Shown one piece after another: positions 35,701 to 64,000 of a stretch of DNA of 64,000 nucleotides. The DNA comes from Aplysia californica. Taxonomy: Eukaryota. The stretch is taken from positions 480,038-544,037 of the forward strand of contig NW_004797416.1 in NCBI RefSeq assembly GCF_000002075.1, written 5' to 3'. Both the position numbers and the translations under genes were made by a program. Numbering within the stretch: the stretch's first letter is position 1; every line of letters begins with the position of its first letter. The notes under the pieces were generated by a model. It saw only the letters and a program-made list of their open reading frames with translations, was not told the DNA's origin and did no database searches.

Positions 35701-38700
35701 AATACGTTTCATGTAGATCTGATTGGTTTTGATCCTTTTTTAATGATCAAATTTTTAAAAATCTTTAATGTTCAATCAAATCCAAATGTCCTGGGCTTTT
35801 TTTAAAATATGGAATCTTGGAGCAGAGGTTGGTAGAGAATCACATGTAAAAGCAAATGTTTTTCCTAATATCTGTAAATTGTCAGAGGTAAGATTGAAAC
35901 TTCTCCTAACTTTTATAGGATTATGTCCTTTGTTTCTTTCCTGCCTTTTCATGTGGGCTGTTGTAAAGAGCTGTTGATGTGACCTGTTTCTTTTCCGTTT
36001 GTTTGAACTACTTCTTTCTTTTCTTTCTTTCAACTGTCTTCTTTTTACATCATCTTGGTTTTACTCAGCCCTTAGTGAATATATTTCGTTGATTTGTTTG
36101 TCTTTTTAGTCAAAGCAACTTACTTTCTTTCACTTTCACAGAACAAAGTCGCAAAGATTATCCTGCTCAAGAATATTTTCGGTCGCCGCAAGATGCTGAC
36201 AGAGCTGAGGCAAATGGACCATGAGCGTTTTGAGTGGCTTCTGAGAGAGCTGAAGATTCGCTACGTGATCCCACGGGACCGAGAGGAGTACAAGGGCTGG
36301 AAACACAACCTGCGGGTCTCCACTCAGCAGAGGGCACTTACCAAACAGAGGAGGAAGCTGGAGAAGCTGAAGGTTTGTGGCTTCTTTTTTGTGAGTACAG
36401 TATCTGGTAGTTATGTATGAAAAGATAGAGGAAAAGAAGAGCAGAGGAAGGCAATGAAGGACATAAATAGATGGCCTGAACAATTTTGCAACAAATAACA
36501 CAAGGAGAAAAATGAAGCTGATGAAGAACACAAACAAATGGAAGGAGTGAGGTACCATGATCATTGATGTCTGCTNNNNNNNNNNNNNNNNNNNNNNNNN
36601 NNNNNNNNNNNNNNNNNNNNNNNNNNNNNNNNNNNNNNNNNNNNNNNNNNNNNNNNNNNNNNNNNNNNNNNNNNNNNNNNNNNNNNNNNNNNNNNNNNNN
36701 NNNNNNNNNNNNNNNNNNNNNNNNNNNNNNNNNNNNNNNNTGATGCTATGGAGATTGAAGGAAGAACTGGAGGTCTCACTTCTGATACATTGGTGGTTTG
36801 AGTACCGTGACTCCTAGGCCTGTCAGTTGTGATAGGGATTTAATGTTATTTCTTTTAAGAAGTGGGACTTACGAATGTAGCGTCTTTTAAAAAAAATTTT
36901 TTTTTATAGTAGAGGGTGTTACGGCGCTCGCAACTGCATAAGGTCATATGAGTGCCATATAATGTCTTTTTCTGGTAAGATGGAGCCAAGTGGAAGGAGA
37001 GTATTGAAGTAACTATCCTAAGTTCAAGCATGCCCCCTTTAGAGATTTGAAGCAGTGTCATCTGTATTGTGCCCAATTCAGCTTGATTGAAACTCACTGA
37101 CAGCGGATACCGACACTGCATCGGTGAGCCTAGACGTACGTGAAATGCCAAACCCAGACCCCTGCTGGTTTTGATTTCTTCTCCGTTTTTACGCTATTAA
37201 CGACTTGCACTACTTGCAGTCGGTCTTAGCAGTTGGGGAAAGGGAAGGAATGGTGATATGATGATGCTCGTCTGTTTGATTTGATGGTTGTTTCCCTTGA
37301 TCTATTGGGGTTGCTTTTGTGGGTTTTTGTTGGTGAGATGAGTTAAAAGAGTATCTTTTAGATCTAGCAAATTGTTTCACGATTTTGGGTTGAACATACA
37401 CACTATCCAGCCTTTAATTGAAAGACTTAGTGTACTTAGATTCCAATTATTCTGTTAAAAGGAAAAAAACCCCATGCCTTTGAGGTTGCTTCATGCGCTT
37501 TGTCAACCAGTGGCTCAAGTTATTCCAAGTTTATTATCTTGCATTTCAAATTATTATGCAAACACAAGTACAACATATATTGAATATCTGTTTTCATTTC
37601 AACAAATCACAACATAAAAACAACATATAGTAAAAATTATGAGCATGTACTTTGAACTGTTATCCAACAATGAATTTTAAAAATACTTTTGAAATGCTGG
37701 CAGCCAGGTTAAATTGGGATTTCATCCCGTGACAGTAAGCCCATTAGACACATTTTAACTTTTTTCTTTTTCTAAGGCTTTTAGCATTCCTACTTACCTG
37801 CATATCATGTGGTGTTATGGTATGGTTCTTCGCAGTTGATCACAGAGGTCATGAGTTCAATTCTTGCAAGGGGAATTTATTTCATCGAGAACCTCCACCT
37901 CTGTGTATCTCCTTGTATGTTTTATACCTCTCAGTGTGGGTTAGCCCTCACATACGAGGTTTGAAGAAGCTTAAGAGTACTTTTGAAAATACTTTATATC
38001 ACGGATAGTTCCTACTCGTCGGGACCGGCCTCGGTAGTTCGAGGGATCCGTAGTTTGAGTTATGCGGGAACAGTGTTATGGCTGTGTCAGAGAATCAAGG
38101 GAAGCAAGAACAATGATGAGCAACGCTTTTGAGTTCGATCGGTAATGAGCCTACCTGTACCAAGACAGTTTTAATTACGCAGGTCAGTTTGAGCAGTCTT
38201 TAGTCTACACCAATCGAATTTCAAATTTTTCAAAACAAACAATTTGATAGCATAAGCACATCCCAATGGTAATCAACAATGGGATGACTAAACAATGCCG
38301 CCCTACCCTACCTCTCCCACCAAGCGTGCAGTCCTTTGTGAAGAGTGGTGTGGCGGCCGATCGTGTGCTGTACAACCCTTTCTCTCGCCTGTTCCACACA
38401 GGCCTAGCTAGGCTTAGGACCTTGGCACATGCAGAGGGCATGTGTGTCGAGCACTGGCCTAAAAAAAGCGCAGCTAGCTGCTTCTGTGGAGGAAGGGGGG
38501 GTGAGGAGCAATCACAAAGAACAAAGAATGTGAGGGTCAATCGTTAACGGTCTTTTATGATCACGCCTTTTCCATGTGTCGAGAAAGGAAGCGCTCGCTT
38601 GCTAGCTTTCTCCGAGACTGTTGTAGGTTTGGCTACCAGCAGTTTCCAGGCTTGTTTTATTTGTGTTTCTGCTCTTTGTGCTTTTTCGAGAACGTTTGTT

Positions 38701-48860: not shown

Positions 48861-49835
48861 CGAGGGCTGTCCCACGGAATACCGGAAAAGGTCCGTAAAA
48901 GCAAAAATCTTTGTCCTATTATAATAAAAATGTAACACATCATACCTCAACATGTGCTTTATTTCTCAATGTAATCACCATCCCGCTGGACACATTTTTC
49001 CCATCGTTGGATCTGGGAGAAGATACCCTCCCTGAAGAATCTTTCGTCAAGGGATTTCAACCAATCGTTCACGGCTTCCACGAGGTCTTCGTTGTCGGTG
49101 AATCGCTGTCCAGAAATATGGCGTTTCATTGGCTCAAAAAGGTGATAATCTGACAGGGCCAAGTCAGGACTGTGAGGGGGGTGTAGTAGAACTTCCTAGC
49201 CAAACCTTTGGAACCAGTCTTTCGGGACGTTTGCGGTGTGTGGCGTTGTGTTGCCATGCTGCAAAATGACCCCGCTGGTCTTTTTCGGCCCCAACCCATC
49301 AAGCAGAGACCTTTCAATAGTGCAGCTCATCAAACTCTATCCAATAGACAGTCGACTTTGAAATGTTTAGCGACTCGCAAATTTTGCGAATTTTTAGGCG
49401 CCCGTCTATTTGAATAAGTTCGTTAATGCGACTCTTGTTGTCCTCAGTCTTGGCAGAAAAACAAGATCCTGGGTAAACTTTGTCATTGATATCGGAGTGC
49501 CCGGCTTTGAACTTACTACATCACTCATATACCTGTGACTTTGCCATTACTTTCTTCCCATAAACTGACTTTATTTCAGTGTGTATTTCTAGAGGTTTGA
49601 GACCTTTTGCGGTCAGAAACCGAATGACAGACCTTACTTCTACCCTTGACCAATTTTCCAAGGGGGTAGCCATCTTTTGAGAACTGCTGTGCTCGTTTGG
49701 TTTGTGGGATGCTCATGGTGCTCAATCGGGAAATTTCTAAATGATTGTTTTACAAGTGTGCGTTTACAGAATGGGAAAATATTGAATAGTTTTCAAATTA
49801 CAGCCAAATTCCGGTTTTCCGTGGGACAGCCCTCG
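48861..49835 (-). mobile_element. Internally deleted mariner (DD34D) transposon with transposase pseudogene
   Basis: 27-bp TIRs CGAGGGCTGTCCCACGGAAWACCGGAA (1 mismatch) and TA TSD. N-terminus MATPLENWSRVEVRSVIRFLTAKG from 49673; C-terminus HPPHSPDLALSDYHLF...RWEKCVQRDGDYIEK to 48959. Internal stop; HDNA reads HGNA. Confidence 0.95.
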
Positions 49836-52013
49836 TATATATATAAAAGTGGACTTTGGAGGCTTTGTGCACAAACTCCTCCCTTTTTACCTAACCCACA
49901 CTTTTAAAACTTTGCAGGCGTCCACAGCATCCATGTAGCTAGGACCTAACTTTAAAAAATCAACGCAAACTGCTTTCCCCGATTTTTCCTAAATGCTTTG
50001 TTTCGTCCACACACAGTTCTAGGCATAGGCTAACTTACGATCAACAATTTCGCAGTCTCATTACTTAAAAACCGGAAATCTTTTCTCGACACAATATTTC
50101 ATGATGTCAAACCTCCCTTTTCGAACTTCATGTTGCGGATCACTTACAGAGTTGTATTTTTCTGTGGTAATTAGACTTAGAAGATATATATCTTAAATCT
50201 TTGTGATAGACCATTTAAAGGGTGCACAGTTATATTAAGGAGTCTGAAGTCACAGTAGTTTAATTTTTGTTTTTTCATTAGTTTCGTTTAGATCAAATCT
50301 TGGGAAAGTCCATCTTCTAAGATGCCATTCTAAACGAGGGAGGCCTCCGTTCACAAGCAGTACGTATCTTCCCACAATGACTTGAAGATCGATTCTTTTG
50401 AGTCTGTTCATCGAACGGGGTACCCAGCTAGTCAAACATAAAAGCTCTGAGTGTTGTGAAAGAAAAATGATAAAAATGATGATGATGACGATGATGATAC
50501 AACATGATGCAACTAAAAAGCATTTTCTAAACTATATTCAAGTCTTGTGTTTTTCATACTGTTCAACAATGATGATCATGATGATGATGGTGACGATGAT
50601 GTGAAAAGAAAATCGCCTCTCACTCAATAATAAAAATGGTACCAAAGAGATAATAAGCATAAAAAATGATGCTAGGGTAAAAACTAAAGCACAACATGAA
50701 GTGACCTACAGACCTCCAGTTTTTTCATTGATCTCCTTAATCACCACATAACTCTTCCACCCATGATAGAGAGAGAGACAAGAGTTGGGAAGCACTGAGA
50801 ACTTAGCAGATCGATGAATAATCTCTTCATTTCTTAACCCATCATTAAGAGGCAAAATAAACGGGATATATGGTACGCACTGTTCAGGGTTTCCACTCAT
50901 CAAGGAGAAAAAATGTCCAACTATTTTCAAAGTAAATTCTTTTCTTAAGACAGCAGAGCTAGTAAAAAGAAATGAAGAGAAATGCAAGATAAAAGTCCTA
51001 ATATGGTAAGGACAAGTCCCTTTTCCTGGGGTGTCAAAGACAGGGGTTGTAGTATAACGGCAACGTAAGCAAAGGCATGATGAAAGAGATCTCGAATAGC
51101 TTTTCGTTTATGGAGTTCGGGAAAAAAAAGAAGTTGGGGGAGGGGGTAGTTTACTAGTAATAAATTGTCGGTTGGTCAGTTCGAATCTTGCAGAAACAAA
51201 ACCCGATGGGATATGTCATGAGTCACAAGGTTGTGATCCTGATTGTGCATCACTACACACTATGTTGCCCTCTGCAGCTGGTTGTTTTATGTTTCAAATT
51301 TAATCGTTATTTTTCTTTTTAATTATCTCATTGGCCAAAATCAACACCCACAATGCAAAAGCATAGGAATTTTTTTAACACCTTGTCAAACTAATGTGGC
51401 CTTACCCCTAGCTTTTGAACAACTAATGTTTTTTTTAAAGGGCAAGCTGTTTAAACTGAGCGATTACAAGGGCCCTCTGCACAGTGAGCCCAGTTAGACA
51501 CCTGCACGTAGTGATGAAGACTGTTGGGTGTCAGGATCTGATTGTCTTCCTAACGTGTTTATACACTGGGAAAGTGGGGATGGGTTGGGGTAGCCGAATG
51601 GCAAATAAATTATTAGAACTCGGAATCAAAAGTGTTATGATTGTACAAGTATTTTTGCAAACAGTTACATCTACATCAACATTACAAAATCTGCTAACGA
51701 AATGAACTCTCAGCTAAAAATTAGATTATCAGTCAGAGTGGTTAAGTGTGCAAACAGGCTTACGGGCCCTTTAGAAAAAAAAAAATCCTTGCAGGAAGGA
51801 CGCTAAAAAGAGAGAGGAAGACAAGACATCTTAGGGAGATGATGAAGATATAAAAGCTTGTATACATGAATATAAAATACTTAAAGCTTTGGGGAAATAG
51901 GAACACAATTCATCTTTCATTATTTGTATGTCAAATATTGAAGAAAGTCAAAACTGATCGGGCAAATGAAATGTCAACAGATGAAGAGCGTGGAATTGAA
52001 TTCAAATAGTCTA

Positions 52014-55000
52014 TTAAGCTTTGTCATATATGTTGTCTGTCAAAGTCGGAGCTGCTTCTCTCTGAAAGGAGGAGTAATCATCCTTTCCAGAACTGTCATA
52101 GATGTTCTGAGGAGCGACATCAGGTTGCTCCCTCAAGTGGTTGTATATTCCACTGTTGCTGGAACGACTTTCCTGTCTGGGGAGTGGAATAGGAGCTTTC
52201 TGCAGCGGTGCAGATATCTGGAGAAAAGAAAGAAATGAATGAATAAACAAACAAATAAATTAATTGACTGCGGAGCTGGTAAATTTAAAAAAAAAAATTT
52301 ATAACACAAACAAGTGGATGAATACATAAAATAAAGAATAAAAACAAAACATGGCATGGCAAGAACCAGAATAAAAATGAGTTGAAATTTTCTGCAATGA
52401 TTTTGTACAAGTTCTGTGAGTTGAATATTTCTTCATCTGCAAACAATTGATGAAGAATTATGAAATAAGACATTTAAACATGCCATAAGTTGAGTTGAGA
52501 AGAGTTTTGATATAAGAGTTGAAAACAAGTTAATGTTTCTCCTTCTTCCTCCCTCCTTTACAAACATCTTGTTTCTTAAAACCTAAGACACATTGAGGGA
52601 AGTGAAGCCCACGGGACAAAATTTCGACAGTACTATTAGATGTTACAACCCTCAAATCATTTCTATCCCATGTTAATACAGTGCAACTCAGATTTAACGA
52701 ACTCGGATTTAACTAATGGAAGCAGATTCCTTGTTTGTTTTTTAATTAATGAAAACAAACAAAATAACTTGGATTCAACAAACACAAAAATGAAAAAAAT
52801 CAAATTCAATGCAGTCATAAAGGAAGGAAGACACAAGTGTTCTGGGAGTGGAAAGTTATAGACGAGTCACAATCATATCCACCCTCTCCCTCCTGCTACT
52901 GGACAATGAAAGGCTAAACAAGACATAGATGTTAATCTACGTAATGAACTGTGCGCTGGTCTGTGGGAACAGACATTGTCATATGCCCTACATTATGTCT
53001 CAACTTGTCGCTCATATTGCTATAACAAACTCTCGGATTCAACTAAATCGAAGGTCAGGCCTGACGACTTCATTATATCCGAGTTTCACTGTTATAAAGA
53101 GAAGATAATTTTGGACACTTTCCCATTTTTGAACAGATAACCCTTCCATCAATTGTATTTCTTTTTCTACACCTTGTTGAATCAAACAGAGGGGGAAATA
53201 ACAAAATAACAAAACGATACCAAAATATTTGGTACAATATAAAAACATACACACATACACAAACACACGTACAATTTGCTTCTCCTTCTTGTGATTCATA
53301 CATCAAAAGCTTAATACACTGTAGGCCTACCTGGTGAGCAAAAGAATAAGGACGGACTTCTGGTTCATTATTCTCAGAGTTCTCTTTTTCACATCCTTTA
53401 TAGTTGTTGTTGCCAGGACCCGTCTCTTCATATTGATTTTCAAGTTCAAAGTACTCATCCTGCTTTAATCCTGTCTCCCCCTTGAGCAGTTTTTCCTCAC
53501 TCTCGTCCTTACTCATGGAGTGGGCCGGCTTGTGAGGCTGGGAGTAAATAACTTCCATAGGGAAGTTAGGGCCATTTGGAACATCTGGTTCATGTTCTCC
53601 GTCAGATAAGCTTGAATCCGTTACATACTTTCCTGAGCTTCTGAGCCTGTGGATTCATCCATTTGTAAGCATACAGCTTAAACATTATTGTTAACAAAAA
53701 TTCTCCATTTATATCATAATATGAATATATATATATATATGAGTGTAGGTCTGTTTGTGAGTGTAAGTGTATATTACAGCTCAACTCAATCCCTCCTCTG
53801 TTCGTCTCCGTTCTTTGTACTGGGAGATGTGAAGGTGGTTCCTACTTCTTTACTTGGATTGAAATATAATTATTTCCTGACTTGCTTTTTCCCAGTACTG
53901 GCCTAAACACACATAAGGTCTTGGTGTGCTCAACCTAGGTAAACTAATGAATAAGATATATAACAACAACAACAGCAACAACAACAATAATAATAATTAT
54001 AATCCAGAGTAAACATGTCTTAATGAAAAAATACCTTTAAAACAACTTGATAACCACACTTTCTCAGTGCTTTAAAATTTTGATTTATTCTTACTAATGA
54101 TATCAGTTACGACTGATCATCATTATAAATTATTAAAATCATCATCATCATTTTCTTAAAGCGACAAAAATCTGTTTTCATTAACACTGACTTTCCTAGT
54201 CAAAAAAGTGTAAGTTGCTGTATACTGCTACGAAACAGCTTCATTTTAGTGAGAGGAGAGTTCACCTTTTCCGTACACAGTGTGCTACTGTCAGCAGAAG
54301 AACGATGATTAGGACAGCTCCAACCACAATACACAGAATGTACACAGTACCTGTGTCAAAACAAAGGGAAAAAGAGACATGCAGTTGAACCAGCTCTAAT
54401 GCCCACCTGTGTAAGAAAATTCCTTGTACAAACGGCCATTTCCTCCCTTGCATATTCCTTACATTATAATGACACTGTGTAAAACAGCCTACTATTTTAA
54501 ATGGCTACTTTTCTCCTTGACAATGGGTGGCTGTCTTAGACAGTTTCGACTGTACTCTAATTTTCCTCTTGTTTTGTGTCAGTACAAAATTGGGGAATTT
54601 TCATTTTTCCTAAAGTATTTTGGTACAAACTAGCAACTATGCAGACAGTTCATTTCTCGGTGCATTTTGCCTATTAACTAACTTGTGCCTGAGCTATTTT
54701 TCACCCAACAACAATTGCACCCTGACAGTTCTTGGGTTTATTTAATCGCTAAAAAAAAAAGACAGAGAAAGCTATCATAGTTTTTTTAATGCAAAAAAAA
54801 GAAAGAAAGAAATGCTCTCACAGAAAAAGAAAATCGCATCGGATTCATCAGAATAGTTTATATTTAATTAATATTTTGAAAAGGCAATGTCTTGGGGTTA
54901 CGTAATTTTTTTTGTGCTGCCCAATTTGTAATAAAATGATCTATTGCAATGCGGGGGTGACAGACTTAGTCGGTTAAAGCTAAAAAAGTATTGCACATAA

Positions 55001-58000
55001 CTTCGCCAAATTTTTAACACAACGAAACAAGTGCGTCAACTGTTGGTTTGTGGCTTCCTGTTCCTTGTAACTGAAAAACACTGGAGATATTGATCGAAAA
55101 AGCGTATTTCGAAAATACACTGGATTCGGCCACTGCGCCAGCGGGACATCCTGTAAATACACGAAAATTGGTTCAAGTGTGTTAACCTTGACACTCAATG
55201 AACCCTTAACTATCTGCCACAAGGACATCTTGTCATATTGCAGAAAAAGGTTCTGAATTACTTTTTATAATCATCCTTTTAGCAAAGAAAATGAGAATAT
55301 CGGTTGGACTTGCAGGTGAAGCCCATCGACACAATAATGGTCATTTGCAAAGAAAAGTAAGACAGAAGAAAAACAGGGAAAGAGAAGAAGTAGGACCAAC
55401 CCGTAGCACCCTCAAATCAGCCATGTAAATATTTTGGCTGCCTGAATGACTAAAAAAAAGGGAGCATGAAAGTTTGGTCATAATCACTTTACAAACAAAT
55501 CAAATTATGAGTAAATCTACCACAAACCTAAATACATGCTTATATAGAAACTTTGTGTGACAACACAAGAGAAGGAGCAAATGAACCCAATGAAGAAAAC
55601 GTACGGCATGACAAATAATTATATACGCTGTTACAGAAAACCTGAGATTTACTACTATCAATAAGCTGCCATAGGTAGTTTGACAGAATCAATTCGTTGT
55701 TCTATTAAGAGTTTTACGGCACTTGCAACAAAATGAGGTCATAGGCCTATACTAAAAGTGCTGAAGATTAGAGGTGTTACAAGGGAATAACCAACACAAA
55801 AAAGAAGGAGACATCAGGACGATAGGTGTTTGATAGGAAAGAAGGAGCAAACCACACCAGAGCACCCTCCAACCTCAATTAGTCGTTTTTCTAAATTCTT
55901 TATAATGAATTTATAAATGTTGAAATTGTCTAAGACTGCCACCCATTGTTGAAGAGAAAAGTGGTTATCTTAGATAGGTGAATATCTTGAGCAATATCAT
56001 TATATAAAACAAAACCACAAGGGGAGAAATGTAAAAATGGTTTTTGAGATTGTCTTGAACAAGTGGCCATCATAGTATGTTAAACTGAATATTGATGGAT
56101 ATTTTTCTCTCTTTCTTCAAGAATATTACTGTACCTAAGGATCCATCTTCACTGTCAGATACACCAGGAAGAAAGGTCTTGTCTTCTCCAAACTGCTTTC
56201 CACAGGTGATCGTCAGGTCTGTCCCTGAGCAAAAATATTATATTAGTAGATTTTAAAAACTTCTAAAAAGTCTGAAATTTGGTTAAGGCAGCACTGGTAA
56301 AACAAGAAGTCACAAAAGTGACTTGAAAAAATTGAAAAATAGATTCAACACAAGTATACAAGGACAGAGCAGTAGGGTGCTGAACTTAACTCTCAAGGGG
56401 GAAAAAAATAGCCGTGTGATTTCAGTTTCTGCCTTCCTGTCTCCATCAGATAGGACCATGAATTATTGAGAAAAGTTCTCTATCTCATTTTCTTCAGTTC
56501 TCCCAAATGTAAATAGATGTTTCCAAACAAGAAAAGATGGTACATGTTATGTGAATAACAGCTGGATACATCTAACAGGCTGCAACACTGCATATCTCTT
56601 CGCACTGAAGTAGTGATTTTGAAATATCAGGCTAGCCAAGACAGAGTTATTGCAAAACTCTGTGAGCCTTCAGAGAATATCCCAAATAAACACTTTTTTC
56701 AACTTAATCACTTTCATCTGTATTTTTTAACAGGCAAATATGAAAAAAAAATAATATATATATATATAAAGTACTATAACATGTCTATCATCAAGAAAAC
56801 ATGTCCATGGGCTCTTGAATATATTATAGCCAAACCAACTACAAAAATTATAAATACCTTCAGAGGTAACATCTTTCGTTAACTATTTCATAAAAACTCT
56901 CCTTATTTTATATATATAATGATATGGATATATATATATATATCTCTTGCTGCTCAAACATAAAATAGCACATTCCTGAAATAGACATTTTGTGGTCTAC
57001 AGTGAGTCAGATACTTATATCTAGCAATTATAATAACAACAGTTATATTTCCACAATGAGAAAATTAAGTTCAGAGAAACACTGGAAAGAAATGGGAGGA
57101 GAAGACCACAGACTTCACCACAGTGATAACAAACCAGCTGAAGAAAGCAGCTGACACACTTTGTTTATATTCCTAGACCTTTGCTTAGAGTTTTCAAAAG
57201 TGGGAAGAAAGACTTGACTAGCCCACACAAAGAAAGGGGGGAGAGGAGTAAGAAGAGCTTGTTGCCATGTCCTCATGAGAGAATCAAGACACTTGAGAAT
57301 TTCTCAAAAGTATTCTCCTCAGGGCTTGTGAAAAAAGCAACTAATTAAAAACATAAATTTAAACAGCATTCTAACAAACAAAAAACTTGATTTACTCTTC
57401 GAGCATGTGACATGATCAAACCTGACAATGACTATAAAACATGGACAAAAGAATTGCTCAAACATATTTAAAATTTGAACTCCTTTCTTACACAAGCAAA
57501 GTGAAAGACATCAGGTTTGCTTTTTTTTAAAACACAAAATTAATATTTTCAGTCTCATTCAAAATCATGAACATCTTAATTTCTCTACACAGGTCCATTC
57601 ACCTACGCTTATGACTTTTCATTTATATCCATTTCATGCCAACTTGTCAACAATTTTCCTTAAAATATTTGTATAGCCTACACACATGAACTTACTTTTG
57701 AAGACATAGTACTGGTACCATGACAAAAAATAAAACTTATGATACATATAAAATAAATGCTGAGCAGAAGCAGCAGCAGCGAAATGTACTGAAATAACAA
57801 AAATTCTAAAGATACTAACAGGTTCTATGCACCTTCTGTTCTAGCACATAAAATCTTGAGGGCAGAAGATACATTTAATCAATTAATTCATCCACAACTA
57901 AGGCAAGAGAGAAAGGGTGGTATAGGATATCCTTTTTATTCAAAGCTCTAATTTTAACAAAAAGAAGTCGCTCACTCTCATATTTTATGTCATGTATATT

Positions 58001-61000
58001 GCCCTGCAAAAGTGGAAAGACATGGAGTGACATCAAGCCACTTGCCCAGGATAGGGAAAGATGGAAAGTGTTTGTTCGTGGCCTAAATCAGGATCCAGGG
58101 TGAGAAAGGCAATGATGATATTGCCTTGTGTTACTTCAACGAGTTACCATGTTATGTATTATTAGGGAGGGCGGGAGGGAAGGAGCAGGGGAGAGAGATA
58201 GACAGAGAACGAGATATATATATATTGATATGACATGATGCATGTGTACTTTGTGTCACAGAAGTTGGTGAAAGCGCTCTGTCAATTTCATACAACAGAG
58301 GAACTTGTAATAAAGTCTATTATATCGCATTTTATCTTCCTCTTGTTCAACTTTAAATAGACATTCCAGTCTCTAGAGTGAAGGCTGCTGTTTGCTGCAG
58401 CTCCTCCAGGCTCCCATAGAGTAATAATGGGGTTCCCTGACTAAGGTTGGACCAAGATTCCCTTCAACGGTTATCTTATCTTATTCCCAGGTAGTTACAC
58501 AATAATATAGTGTAAAGCGCATAGAGCCTGCTGTTGAGCGGGGATATGCGCTATACAAATGCTATCTATTATTATTATAAGTAATCTCACCTTTAACACC
58601 AGCCCAGATACTGTCAGGGATAAAGTTTGGATTGACACCAGAAAGAGACAATGTCATGACAGAGGAGGATGTGCATAGTTTTCCATCAAGATAATAGCGC
58701 AGCTTCTCATCACTGATTGTTACCCTGAGATGGGAGAGATACAATAAGTATAAGATTTACACGAAATACAGAGAGTTCATCCAAGTTAATGTTTACATTT
58801 ACCATTGATAAATACTGAGAACATTTGTACAAATCAAGTGTTTGTAGTTCAGTGTACATTTATACATTTTATAGTTTTAAATTCTGCAAAATGGAGCAGA
58901 AGGACTCACCAAAGTTTATAAAAATAGTGTCTATCTAACCAAAGTGAGTTGGACATGGTAACACTGACTGATTAACTACTGGGTCATATGACTGTACTCA
59001 CACAGTTCCATTTCACTTTGAAACATGAACATCATATTAATGAACAAATCAGTAGGAAGTTGAATTGTCAGTACCTCCCGGAGTCACAGCTTTCTATCAA
59101 ATTAAATTGTAAATGAAACGTTTAAGTTTTCATCCCGACGGTTAAGTTGAACGTCTGATGAGCTGATCTTTTTTCCACTCCACCGATGACATCAACTCAT
59201 CCTTAGTCGACTGTATACAGTGGTGTCCAAGAGAAACTTGAAATGTAATTACCCAATCATCGTGTTAAAGCCTTGCACTATCGCTTACGCATCATACCAA
59301 TTTAAAGCTAAATAACAAAATGAATTGTGCATCATCTTAAAAAATAATAGCTTATCTATGTTTAGAGAAGCCCGAGATATGGTCACTCAAAACTGACCTT
59401 AAAAGTCAATCTTGGCAAATTTGAGCAAAATTAGAGAAACGTAAAATTGCCTTTGTGCGTGTATTGAGGAGTATCAACATTTGTTTTTGTTTTGTTTTTG
59501 TAAAGTGTTTTACGGCGCTCGCAACTGCATAAGGTCATATGAGTGCGCGGGACACACCTAATGTTTTCAGTTGGTAGGAAATTTTGAATTTTGCCCGGGT
59601 GGCGGCCGAAGCCTACTCTTATCGATTTTAGACCACCAAGGGATCTTTAACGTGCGCAACTTGCACACGGGCCCTCCGAGATTTTTTGCCCTTGTCCGAG
59701 AAGGCTAGGTGTAGGTCTTTCCTACCAGAAGATCAGGGGTGTGGCTGAAAGACAGCAGTAAGAAGAAGCGAAGGAAAAGCAGTAGAAAGGCTGCAGAAAG
59801 AATCAGGAGCCCAGAGGAAGGGGCAAAGGAGGTGAGGGGGTGGGGGCAGAAAGAGGAGACGAAAGCAGACGACAGAACATGGCTAGAGAGCAGGAAATGA
59901 GGTGAAAGGAGACAAATTTAGAGAAGAACATTTTTCGGTCGCTCCCCGGATTCGAACCCGGGACCTTTTGAATGAAAGGCCAACACCTTAACCTCTAGGC
60001 CACGAGAGCCCCCGTATCAACATTGATAGAAAGGACATACATTGCCCTTCCAATGAAAGGATAATATTGTCTCTGCAATAAACAAAATTTAATTTCCATA
60101 GTTTCAAACAAAACGGAAAACGGAGCAGTCTTATACTTCGCAAAACTTCTTAACATTAAACGTGCTCACTGTTATCTTGCTTAGGAGCCATTGGTTTTGT
60201 GAAGGGCTCGAACCCTTTGGTAATCTGCTCTAATAAATTTTGGACATAATTATCTGTTATTTCATTCAAAATGTAACAAAAATTTGCAAACAAAAGGTTT
60301 GAATTGGGAGTAAAGTTGCTTTTCTTCAGCTGCTCATGGGACTTCAGATATTCTGTAGGATTCATCTGGGCTATTTACTGGAGACCACTCCAGCACTGAT
60401 ATGATTTGATTTGTCAAGAATTGTGTAAGGGTATTGGCCCTGTGAGAAAGTGCTTTCCATGAATGAAGATGTCTACTTGAACGACGCTGCGACGAAAATA
60501 AGGGTAAGACAAGATGTTCAAGCACGTGCGTGATGTAGTACACTGAACCAAGCAATCCTGTGAATCACATGAGGGCAGTTTTGTTTATTCCACCCTAGAC
60601 AACCCAAAACCATGGCAGTTTTGTGGCCTCACTCTTCAGTGACAGATGATCAATCCAAAATCTAACAAACACAGTCCATGTGCAAAATAAATTTCATGCT
60701 CTACACGAAACCAATAGTTCCTAAACAAAAACAAAATCATACCAATGAACACATGTAACGTTAAGTTCAGGCTTTGTTTGGAATTTGTGACTACTCAGTC
60801 ACTATGTTTTCTAATCTGTTTGAAAACAGCACCAGAAGATGCATTTCATTGCAGAGATAATAATTTAAATATTCTCTTTTCATTTGATATTCAATACATT
60901 ATGTCCAATCCACCAATGTTGATGCACCTCAACAGGCCCACTTGCGCGAACACACTTTTATGTTTCTTTGATTTCACACAATTTTGCTAAGCCTGATTTT

Positions 61001-63733
61001 TTAAGGTAAATTTTGAGGTGATCATATCTTAGGCATCTTTTAAGGAAGATGAAATATTAATGTGTCAGATGATGCAACATTTTCGTAGCTTTAAATTGGT
61101 ATGCTACATTCTTCTTCTTCTTCCTTGTTCTCGATGACAGCAGCTAGACAGTCAATCCGCTGTCGCGCACAAACTGTGCAGTGCGCTTCAAATTTGAGAG
61201 ACTGCCATAGAGCTTTCTCTCAAGGGGCGTCACATTCTGCCACGTCTGTATACGAAGGGTGGCGCCGCGCGGGCAGTGCTGAAGGTAATGGTTGGCATCC
61301 TCTTGTTTGTGTCCACATTCGCAGATCGTGGACTCTCCCACTTTTAATTTAGTGTATATGGTGTTTGAGTCTGTTGTGGCCACAACGGAGTTAAAAGATT
61401 GTGACCTTGTCTGCTCTATTTAGCATGTAGTAGGGTGATTAGGGTGGGATCTTTTTCATCTGTTTCTTATGGCAGATTTTATTAGCGGTATGCTACATTA
61501 GTGGGTTGTGCGAGGCTTTAACATGAAGATAGGTTGATTGCATTTTCATGCCACTGTATAAGCTGCCACAGGTAGCTGGACAGAATTTATTGTTTTTCTA
61601 AATTCTTTATTATGAATGAATAAATGTTGAAATTGTCCAAGACTGCCACCTATTGTAGAGCAGAAATGTAGTTGTCTTAGACAGGTAGACGTCTCGGACA
61701 ATATCATCATAATATAACAAAACTCTTGAGATCCACAGGACTCGCACACTGGAGCTCCCTTGTGTCAAATGCTACATTTACTCTAGGACAATGCTACCTC
61801 AGAATCACAAAGTTTTATCTGAAATTTTTGGCTGTTTTGAGTTACTGAGACCATGAGGTTGGAAATCAATTTAATGTTCTATCTGCTCTATCAAAATCGT
61901 AAGGTTATTTGGAGTCGTTATCAAAATCATATTAAAAGAATTGAATTTTAAAAAGCTTGACATGATGAGAAATTCAAAATCTTTGACGTCAAATTGCTCA
62001 AAATTAAGTACTGAGCAGACAGAACTTTGTAATTCTGGGGTAGCGACATGCTGAGGCATATGTTTGCCCCTCACAGGGTAAAGGAAAGCATTCCCATAGG
62101 TTCTATAGGGTTAAGAAAACTTGGATGGGAACAACACCAGTCTAGATCAACTGAACATGTCAGCTCTTTGCTAAACAGAGAAAAATTGTTCTTTTACATA
62201 AGTTTCAATAATTATAACAATCATTTATGGGTGCTGGTTTATAACTGGTCTATTGTTATGTTTCTAGTTCAGTTGACAGTCTTATACCTCTGGATCGTTC
62301 TGACAACTAGTAAGTTTAGTGGATGGTATAGGCCTACAACTACTATATTTCTTGTCTCCTCATGACAATGATCAATTCACATTTATATTGACTTGAGAGT
62401 GTCATTGGCTGCATTAAAATGTTGTTTTATTCGGTAGTTGTAATTTTTATTTTCCCTGTGCACATATACAGACTTGGCACTGTCAGTGGCCACATTTAAA
62501 ATGTTGGTCCTCTGAAGGAACTTTACATTTCCACTCTGAGTTTAGACTTATACAGGCTCGGAACTGTCATAAACCACACTAAAAATATTGACCCTGAAAA
62601 GGTACTGTTTCTTCGGTAAGAATGACGATGTTGTAAAATTCTATTACATACATCTTGTTGGGTTTCAAAATGGAAGGGAATAAAATATTGAATATCTCAA
62701 TCTCTTTTCATACATTTTAAAGTAAAGTTCTGGCCGACCAGTCAAAATGAAACAAGATCTAAATGGTGCATCCCATGCATAAACACCTCCGCCTTTGATC
62801 CATCCTCCTGTGTTTGATCTTAATATTTAGTGGCTAGCTGTCAATGTCTGTCACTTGCTGTCCCGACTTACTTGTCAATCATAATCTTTATAGTGGCAAA
62901 CATTCTTCAATTTAAACAACAATGCAATTTGAAGAAATACACCCACCCACTCAACACAAATGTAAAAATACATGTACCACTGTCTGATCTAAATGCCTGC
63001 ACTGCTGCCATTACTATCGCCAATCAGGTGGGTACGCTAAGCTTTTGCCTCATCACAGTAAACTGTGGTTGATCAAGTGGGACTTGGAGTAGACTGGCGT
63101 ATCTCATTAATGTCTCTCCAGTTTAACTGCACTTGGAGGAGGGATTCAGATTCCAACCGAAAGGAGATAGGATACAGCTGGACAAGGATGGAGACTGTTC
63201 GTTTAGTTAGAAGTTTTATGGCAGTAGTAACTACATAAGGTCATATGAGCACGCAAAACACAAGTTGGTAGCATTTGCAACAGTTCAGAGCATGGCTTGA
63301 TTTCACCTTATGGTAAAGTTAAACATGTCATGGTAAATATTTCAGTATTTAAAAGGATTAAAAGATAAATGATAAAAATAGGATGTAGATTAAAGTCCAG
63401 GACAGAAGTAGCCTACATGAAGAGCTCTTGTTAGTGGTCTATACCCCAGCACACGGTAAAAAAAAGGCTGACGACGACGATAATGATGGTAGGATTACCT
63501 GTTTGTGCCGTCACATCCATGGATGTTTAGAGACATTCCTTTGGATATACGGATATCATACGCTGAGAGGGTGACCTCTGCTGAATTGTTGCTCCTGGAG
63601 GTAATTTGGCAGGAACATGATGAACTCTCTGGTTGAGCGGAGAATGTTTCATTTTTGAAAATAAGCTGGATCAATAAATTTGATGAAATTTCAGTGCTGA
63701 CATTTTCACAGATGTCATATACTCTGGAAGACC
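52014..63733 (-). CDS. Uncharacterised single-pass type I membrane protein (5' partial): CUB-like Cys-containing ectodomain, TM helix, tyrosine-rich cytoplasmic tail
   Basis: Exons 63733-63499, 58724-58591, 56224-56135, 54350-54266, 53646-53331, 52217-52014 splice GT-AG in consistent phase into about 354 stop-free codons ending TAA. TM segment VYILCIVVGAVLIIVLLLTVA followed by HCVRKR. The 53646 acceptor has a weak pyrimidine tract. Confidence 0.85.
52679..53091. mobile_element. Tigger-like MITE in the last intron of the receptor gene
   Basis: Left end CAGTGCAACTCAGATTTAACGAA versus reverse complement of right end CAGTGAAACTCGGATATAATGAA. TA on the left flank. Confidence 0.7.
58004..58117 (+). 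mobile_element. Very short 5'-truncated RTE LINE
   Basis: SGKTWSDIKPLAQDRERWKVFVRGL then stop, (ATG)n tail, 8-bp TSD ATATTGCC at 57996-58003 and 58118-58125. Confidence 0.75.
59482..60013 (-). mobile_element. Full-length copy of the same SINE family
   Basis: Collinear with and highly similar to the reverse complement of 26647-27176. 11-bp TSD GTATCAACATT at 59471-59481 and 60014-60024. Confidence 0.92.
61111..61486 (-). mobile_element. 5'-truncated I-group/Ingi-like LINE with CCHC knuckle
   Basis: CECGHKQEDANHYLQHCP...KLYGSLSNLKRTAQFV then stop, (GAA)n tail, 13-bp TSD GGTATGCTACATT at 61098-61110 and 61487-61499. Confidence 0.9.
61560..61724 (+). repeat. Dispersed repeat; interrupted copy at 55662-56015 and inverted fragment at about 54510-54550
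   Basis: TAAGCTGCCAYAGGTAG...GACAGAAT...TTTTTCTAAATTCTTTAT...ATAAATGTTGAAATTGTCYAAGACTGCCACC is shared between copies. Confidence 0.8.
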
Positions 63734-64000
63734 CTGAAATTTAAAAAAGGAAAGAAAACAATCATCTAAATACCAGTAGAAAATAATGAAGATATATAAT
63801 TCCCAATTTATTTTTTATACAATTCCTTTAATGTTGCATACATTAAAAAAACCCAACAGATTATGGTAATGTGAAGTATGATAATATTGCACTTCTCAAT
63901 AAGAATTTAAGTCGGAAGGTTTATTTTGAATTATCTGTTTTGTGTCCATTTGGCCATTAGCAAACCAGTCAGTTTGTTCATATGACGAACTGAGAGCCTT

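What the first reader, a model, noticed from the sequence alone, without database searches (positions are those of the whole stretch)
52014..63733. Unrecognised kinase-less receptor with a CUB-like ectodomain and 10 cytoplasmic tyrosines
Seen: six exons splice into an ectodomain with 6 Cys (DICE, CSC, GCD, LCT, TCG), N-glycosylation sequons (NVS, NET, NNS) and motifs CSCQI...AYDIRI...IWAGV. One TM helix with a juxtamembrane Cys follows. The acidic, low-structure tail of about 175 aa has no catalytic domain but carries VIYSQP, DEYFEL, NQYEET, PYSF, GIYNHL, NIYDSS, DDYSSF and a terminal NIYDKA. Established: I-Y and acidic-Y contexts are Src/Abl-type phosphorylation sites, and YxxP, YxxL and YD/YEE are SH2 docking motifs. 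Inference: an invertebrate immunoreceptor or adhesion receptor that signals through recruited tyrosine kinases. I cannot assign it to a named family.
Basis: partly seen in the sequence, partly recalled or inferred. Interest (0 to 1): 0.7.

Follow-up and report, generated by a model that had tools for sequence, protein, structure and literature searches.

The report
Sea-hare receptor with tyrosine docking tail
This is a real, spliced sea-hare gene, already in databases but without a name, for a predicted cell-surface protein with no enzyme part whose inner tail carries ten tyrosines that likely serve as docking sites for signalling proteins, a familiar receptor design in what appears to be a snail-and-slug-only family.

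Summary
Six GT-AG exons join in frame and are the last 353 residues of a 518-aa RefSeq protein, Aplysia californica LOC101847103. Two further exons lie beyond the window and add a predicted signal peptide and a second six-cysteine domain. One assembled contig joins the exons. The second domain is weakly CUB-like: Atlas TM 0.60-0.64, and a local CUB profile aligns three cysteines, 6 of 2000 shuffles scoring as high. My own folds failed. The first domain resembles SUEL lectins only as a lead. Four of ten tail tyrosines follow isoleucine (7 of 100,000 shuffles); acidic and +3 contexts are not enriched, and there is no ITAM or ITIM. Best reading (0.6): a kinase-less scaffold receptor working like DCBLD/CDCP1, though not a member of either family. 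It is single-copy and unclustered. A published orthogroup pairs it with 19 Biomphalaria proteins only; I could not retrieve them, so tyrosine conservation and any immune role are untested.

The parts
63499..63733 (-). exon 3 of 8: first part of the CUB-like domain (C173, C204, C206, C238; sequons N175, N192, N213)
   Evidence: 37% identical to unnamed fragment P0003
58591..58724 (-). exon 4: second part of the CUB-like domain (C260)
56135..56224 (-). exon 5: last strand with C295 and short acidic stalk; one variant (G308D) in run X6
54266..54350 (-). exon 6: predicted transmembrane helix (about aa 320-340), juxtamembrane C342, basic stop-transfer residues
53331..53646 (-). exon 7: cytoplasmic tail with Y353, Y380 (YxxP), Y411 (YxxL), Y418 (YEE), Y428, Y446
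52014..52217 (-). exon 8, coding part: PxxxPR motif at 460, Y476 (YxxL), Y491, Y499 (YxxF), Y515, stop codon
51000..52013 (-). 3' untranslated region, at least 1 kb (the contig runs on past the stretch that was laid)
   Evidence: record 1 of run X6

Best explanation
The gene encodes a predicted type I membrane glycoprotein with no catalytic domain that likely works as a scaffold receptor: ligand binding or clustering would let Src- or Abl-type kinases phosphorylate its tail tyrosines, which would then dock SH2 adaptors. Shown: eight GT-AG exons, a spliced contig over exons 3-8, the hydrophobic helix, 10 tail Tyr, Ile at -1 enriched. Predicted: signal peptide, CUB-like second domain with four CUB-type cysteines plus an extra pair, disordered tail. 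Inferred: phosphorylation, a Crk/Abl-type site at Y380 (I-Y-x-x-P), a Src-SH2-like site at Y418 (YEE; consensus recalled), and a SUEL-derived first domain that has lost its sugar-binding motifs and so probably binds protein, not rhamnose or galactose. The ligand and tissue are unknown.
For: Anatomy. Spliced contig. No Pfam family in the 518-aa protein at E<=1. CUB-like: 8 of the 10 feature rows shown name CUB or CRF-BP families, scores 0.83-0.87 (top two other rows have no family, 0.90 and 0.87); 4 of 10 structure rows are CUB-bearing clusters at TM 0.60-0.64, all under the tool's bar for naming a family. A profile from 28 Aplysia CUB pieces scores aa 165-300 at 8.0 bits, 6 of 2000 shuffles as high, aligning C204, C238, C260 to CUB cysteines; control regions score 0.2 and -0.7. 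P0003 lacks both C173 and C204, a paired loss that fits a disulfide. Ile at -1 on 4 of 10 Tyr, shuffle mean 0.34, 7 of 100,000; tyrosine kinases generally select Ile at -1, ABL prefers aliphatic -1 and Pro +3, and nematode kinases keep these preferences (PMC11136658, passages). DCBLD1/2 are a worked example of this design (PMC6029619, abstract and introduction). Src kinases act in Aplysia cells (PMC4569314, PMC2150837; search listing only).
Against: No tail homologue was retrieved, so tyrosine conservation is untested. Acidic and +3 contexts are at chance level; the Tyr count itself is only marginal (P 0.003-0.09 for assumed backgrounds of 2-3.5%). Only one YxxP. The reversed domain scores 4.9 bits on the CUB profile and P0003 scores 0.9 (379 of 2000 shuffles as high). 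Both AlphaFold models failed (pLDDT 39.6 and 32.3) and structure searches with them gave nothing specific. SUEL similarity is not significant by sequence. Three poly(A) raw-read runs of one study show no junction read in the listed joints and about zero depth on the exon 3 and exon 6 bins.
Confidence: 0.6

Rival explanations
1. It is a pathogen-recognition receptor of the kind found in the Biomphalaria resistance clusters GRC/PTC1 and PTC2, with a degenerate lectin-like outer domain, active on blood cells.
For: Same gross build: single pass, no recognised domain, no homologues outside gastropods (PMC7494358, PMC5310918; passages). The published orthogroup holds 1 Aplysia and 19 Biomphalaria proteins and none from oyster, fly or human (PMC9334734 supplement rows). 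SUEL-like lead for domain 1.
Against: No paralogue in 493 kb around the gene (9.7% N) or in the genome. One amino-acid difference in 979 coding bases of the single other haplotype seen, against 15-45% extracellular differences for grctm6 and 3-85% for PTC2 alleles. No ITAM or ITIM. None of the 19 accessions is listed among 1221 Biomphalaria haemocyte proteins (PMC6281880 supplement search; grouped accessions are hidden and membrane proteins may be under-sampled). 15 of the 19 accessions are near-consecutive and may be isoforms of one gene.
Confidence: 0.15
2. It is a cargo or co-receptor whose tyrosines mainly serve as unphosphorylated sorting signals for clathrin-mediated uptake.
For: Three Yxx-hydrophobic motifs (Y411, Y476, Y499) and a PxxxPR motif; their reading as AP-2 and CIN85/CD2AP ligands is recalled.
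Against: Hydrophobic or Pro residues at +3 are not enriched (20,303 of 100,000 shuffles), there is no NPxY or dileucine motif, and sorting does not explain Ile at -1.
Confidence: 0.15
3. It is a fast-evolving adhesion or surface glycoprotein whose tail tyrosines are incidental or come from short internal repeats.
For: No detectable tail homologue; two N-I-Y-D copies; most context tests at chance level.
Against: 4 of the tail's 6 Ile stand directly before Tyr.
Confidence: 0.1

Closest known systems
DCBLD1 and DCBLD2 (ESDN) scaffolding receptors (PMC6029619; abstract and introduction read)
   Same: Single pass, CUB domain outside, no catalytic domain, many tail tyrosines used by Src-family kinases and Abl.
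   Different: They carry LCCL and discoidin domains and seven or eight YxxP motifs; this protein has no Pfam match and one YxxP. No sequence similarity was found.
CDCP1 (recalled; Atlas rows name its CUB family)
   Same: Degenerate CUB domains, juxtamembrane Cys, tyrosine tail phosphorylated by Src-family kinases.
   Different: Three CUB domains in CDCP1 (recalled), one here, preceded by a different six-cysteine domain.
EVA-1/EVA1C and other SUEL-domain receptors (recalled)
   Same: SUEL-type domain outside, single pass, no catalytic domain.
   Different: SUEL likeness here is only an Atlas lead (0.86); three of the eight cysteines and the YGR, DPC and KYL-type motifs are absent by alignment.
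Biomphalaria glabrata GRC/PTC1 (grctm6) and PTC2 single-pass proteins (PMC5310918, PMC7494358; passages read)
   Same: Gastropod-restricted single-pass proteins of similar size with no recognised domain.
   Different: Those are clustered and extremely polymorphic; this gene has no neighbouring paralogue and the one other haplotype seen is nearly identical. Homology to them could not be tested.

Membership tests
CUB domain | Pfam PF00431 match above cut-off | tested here: not met
   no family at E<=1
CUB domain | conserved cysteines in register with a CUB profile | tested here: met
   C204, C238, C260 aligned by the profile, 8.0 bits, 6 of 2000 shuffles; C173 placed by position and paired loss in P0003. 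Weak: reversed sequence 4.9 bits
CUB domain | jelly-roll fold matching solved CUB structures | tested here: inconclusive
   Atlas model TM 0.60-0.64 to predicted CUB-bearing models; own models unusable
DCBLD1/2 | CUB + LCCL + discoidin ectodomain | tested here: not met
   no LCCL or discoidin match; Atlas leads point to SUEL-like and CUB-like only
DCBLD1/2 | seven or eight tail YxxP motifs | tested here: not met
   one YxxP, Y380
DCBLD1/2 | phosphorylation by Src-family kinases/Abl and CRKL-SH2 binding | not testable with these tools
   needs experiment
CDCP1 | three CUB domains (recalled) | tested here: not met
   one CUB-like region; domain 1 scores 0.2 bits on the CUB profile
SUEL / rhamnose-binding lectin (PF02140) | significant sequence or profile match | tested here: not met
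   Pfam none; pairwise and two-sequence profile at chance level, 914 of 2000 shuffles
SUEL / rhamnose-binding lectin (PF02140) | eight cysteines and YGR, DPC, KYL-type motifs | tested here: not met
   four cysteines align by MAFFT, a fifth by eye; C5, C6, C7 and the motifs are absent (motif roles recalled)
SUEL / rhamnose-binding lectin (PF02140) | SUEL fold | tested here: inconclusive
   feature score 0.86, 177 of 256 shared, family on 27% of that cluster; structure rows unrelated at TM 0.31-0.41
ITAM/ITIM immunoreceptors | ITAM, ITIM or ITSM motif (patterns recalled) | tested here: not met
   0 matches for each pattern
Biomphalaria GRC/PTC2 resistance genes | single pass, no known domain, gastropod-restricted | tested here: met
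   absence outside gastropods rests on searches of limited reach
Biomphalaria GRC/PTC2 resistance genes | cluster of related single-pass genes | tested here: inconclusive
   no paralogue in 493 kb; window neighbours are a C1 peptidase, PACRG and a weak S15 match; unrelated single-pass neighbours outside the window were not annotated
Biomphalaria GRC/PTC2 resistance genes | extreme allelic divergence | tested here: inconclusive
   1 difference in 979 coding bases, one haplotype only
Biomphalaria GRC/PTC2 resistance genes | sequence homology to a GRC or PTC2 gene | not testable with these tools
   Biomphalaria sequences not retrieved; PTC2 table uses other identifiers
Receptor tyrosine kinases / receptor phosphatases | catalytic domain in the tail | tested here: not met
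   175-aa tail, no Pfam match, stop codon and 3' UTR on the contig

The most novel reading that the evidence does not exclude
This is the single-copy sea-hare member of a gastropod-only receptor family, built from a dead SUEL lectin domain and a CUB domain on a phosphotyrosine tail, that has expanded in Biomphalaria and includes some of the domain-less single-pass genes of the schistosome-resistance clusters; it would give those genes a fold and a signalling mechanism.
Probability: 0.1. Interest if true: 0.7.

Novelty: new variant of a known kind. Interest (0 to 1): 0.3.

Why it matters
Snail genomes hold many single-pass proteins with no recognised domain, and some control resistance to schistosomes (PMC7494358, PMC5310918; passages). 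Reading one of them as two degenerate extracellular modules on a kinase-substrate tail offers a testable way to interpret the class. As it stands this is one unnamed, annotated gene with a familiar receptor logic, so the value is modest unless its Biomphalaria partners prove to be resistance genes.

Full report
Observation. The six exons 63733-63499, 58724-58591, 56224-56135, 54350-54266, 53646-53331 and 52217-52014 have AG/GT ends at 5 of 5 introns and give one open frame of 353 residues. That frame is the exact C-terminus of P0001, a 518-aa protein named by NCBI as uncharacterized LOC101847103, XP_005097154.1, Aplysia californica. Two more GT-AG exons lie about 0.5-0.9 kb and 3.3-3.4 kb beyond the window's end; they add a predicted signal peptide and a 135-aa domain with six cysteines. 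Domain 1 is one exon between phase-1 introns, and exons 3-5 are also bounded by phase-1 introns, as is usual for shuffled extracellular modules (the generalisation is recalled).

Transcript. Of 24 runs listed I laid 4 on window 51000-64000. A 4065-base contig of run X6 runs through exons 3 to 8 in order and on into at least 1 kb of 3' UTR. Three joints are listed with GT-AG ends; the other two follow from contiguous record coordinates. X6 is only guessed to be RNA and carries a different organism label, but it differs at 1 of 979 coding bases in the five exons listed (G308D), and the genome search shows no intronless copy. Three poly(A) raw-read runs from one study show no junction read in the listed joints and about zero depth in the exon 3 and exon 6 bins, so the gene is silent or very low in those samples, whose tissue I do not know.

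Ectodomain. Pfam finds nothing. For aa 165-300 the Atlas gives CUB and CRF-binding-protein clusters by features (0.83-0.87; best row 0.90, an unnamed cluster) and CUB-bearing models by structure (TM 0.60-0.64 in 4 of 10 rows, under the tool's naming bar). As a separate test I built a profile from 28 of 30 fetched Aplysia CUB pieces (83 matches in the genome; two pieces with stops dropped). The domain scored 8.0 bits, 6 of 2000 shuffles as high, with C204, C238 and C260 on CUB cysteines; domain 1 and the tail scored at chance. Against this, the reversed domain scored 4.9 and P0003 0.9. P0003, an unnamed fragment 37% identical over exon 3 whose only match in this genome is that exon (E 1e-7), lacks both C173 and C204, which fits a disulfide. 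My two AlphaFold models failed (pLDDT 39.6, 32.3) and gave no specific structural match. I rate CUB-like as probable (about 0.8). For aa 25-165 the Atlas lead is SUEL lectin (0.86, 177 of 256 features; structure rows unrelated). An alignment with two Aplysia SUEL domains keeps four cysteines and loses the C5-C6 pair, C7 and the sugar-binding motifs (motif roles recalled), but scores are at chance. This stays a lead (about 0.5).

Tail. Residues 344-518 hold 10 Tyr. Four have Ile at -1 (shuffle mean 0.34; 7 of 100,000). I/V/L/D/E at -1 (4126 of 100,000) and D/E/S at +1 (3699 of 100,000) are marginal; acidic residues at -4 to -1 and hydrophobic/Pro at +3 are at chance. There is one YxxP, one YEE, three Yxx-hydrophobic motifs and one PxxxPR, and no ITAM, ITIM, ITSM, YxN, YxxM or NPxY. 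Tyrosine kinases generally select Ile at -1, ABL prefers aliphatic -1 with Pro +3, and nematode kinases keep such preferences (PMC11136658, passages). Y380 fits that ABL pattern at -1 and +3.

Relatives. Database searches returned no full-length relative; they need shared exact words or used exon 3 alone, so their reach is limited. The gene is single-copy by the searches made, with no paralogue in 493 kb around it. Its neighbours in the window are a C1 peptidase, PACRG and a weak ribosomal S15 match (28 chosen frames scanned). A published OrthoFinder table puts the protein in OG0000431 with 19 Biomphalaria glabrata proteins and none from oyster, fly or human (PMC9334734, supplement rows); that paper counts 1918 gastropod-only orthogroups (passage), so this is common. 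Fifteen of the 19 accessions are near-consecutive and may be isoforms. I could not obtain these sequences, so the grouping and tyrosine conservation are unverified.

Mechanism. Most likely (0.6) a scaffold receptor: engagement of the outer domains would cluster it, Src- or Abl-type kinases would phosphorylate the tail, and SH2 adaptors would dock. This is how DCBLD1/2 work (PMC6029619, abstract and introduction), but the protein fails membership of DCBLD (no LCCL or discoidin match, one YxxP) and of CDCP1 (one CUB-like region; CDCP1 features recalled). Rivals: a GRC/PTC2-type recognition receptor (0.15), a sorting or cargo receptor (0.15), incidental tyrosines (0.1). The GRC/PTC2 genes are clustered and differ by 15-45% (grctm6 ectodomain) or 3-85% (PTC2) between alleles (passages); this gene shows neither sign so far, on thin data. 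None of the 19 accessions appears in a list of 1221 haemocyte proteins (PMC6281880, supplement search).

Novelty. The gene model is public; no paper in the library names it, and searches found no description of this architecture. Two unreviewed notes of this scan describe tyrosine-tailed orphan receptors in a mussel and an octopus, which suggests, as a lead only, that the design recurs in molluscs. Verdict: real gene, new variant of a known receptor design, interest 0.3.

Noticed in passing
window 3549-7323 (+): Exons of a papain-family (C1) cysteine peptidase, probably a cathepsin; three frames match Peptidase_C1, best E 4e-21.
   Followed up: partly
window 16984-18622 (-): Two exons of PACRG (Parkin co-regulated protein), E 6e-18 and 1e-17.
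   Followed up: partly
window 36079-36417 (+): Weak Ribosomal_S15 match (E 0.007, below cut-off), possibly an exon of mitochondrial S15.
   Followed up: no
window 59936-60011 (-) and about 59500-60013: ARAGORN calls a tRNA-Glu here; it heads a very high-depth, variable repeat in intron 3, so it is likely a tRNA-derived SINE, not a tRNA gene. Shorter repeat pieces lie near 55730-55874 and 58501.
   Followed up: partly
window 48962-49712 (-) and 29156-29602 (-): Broken mariner-type transposase pieces (HTH_48, E 0.007) and an RNase H frame (E 8e-9) from mobile elements.
   Followed up: no
G000:C619:358257-439067 (+): Many CUB matches along about 80 kb on one strand, probably a cubilin-like gene.
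   Followed up: no
run X6 on window 51000-64000: The run carries a different organism label from the genome's own label yet its contig is nearly identical to the window.
   Followed up: no
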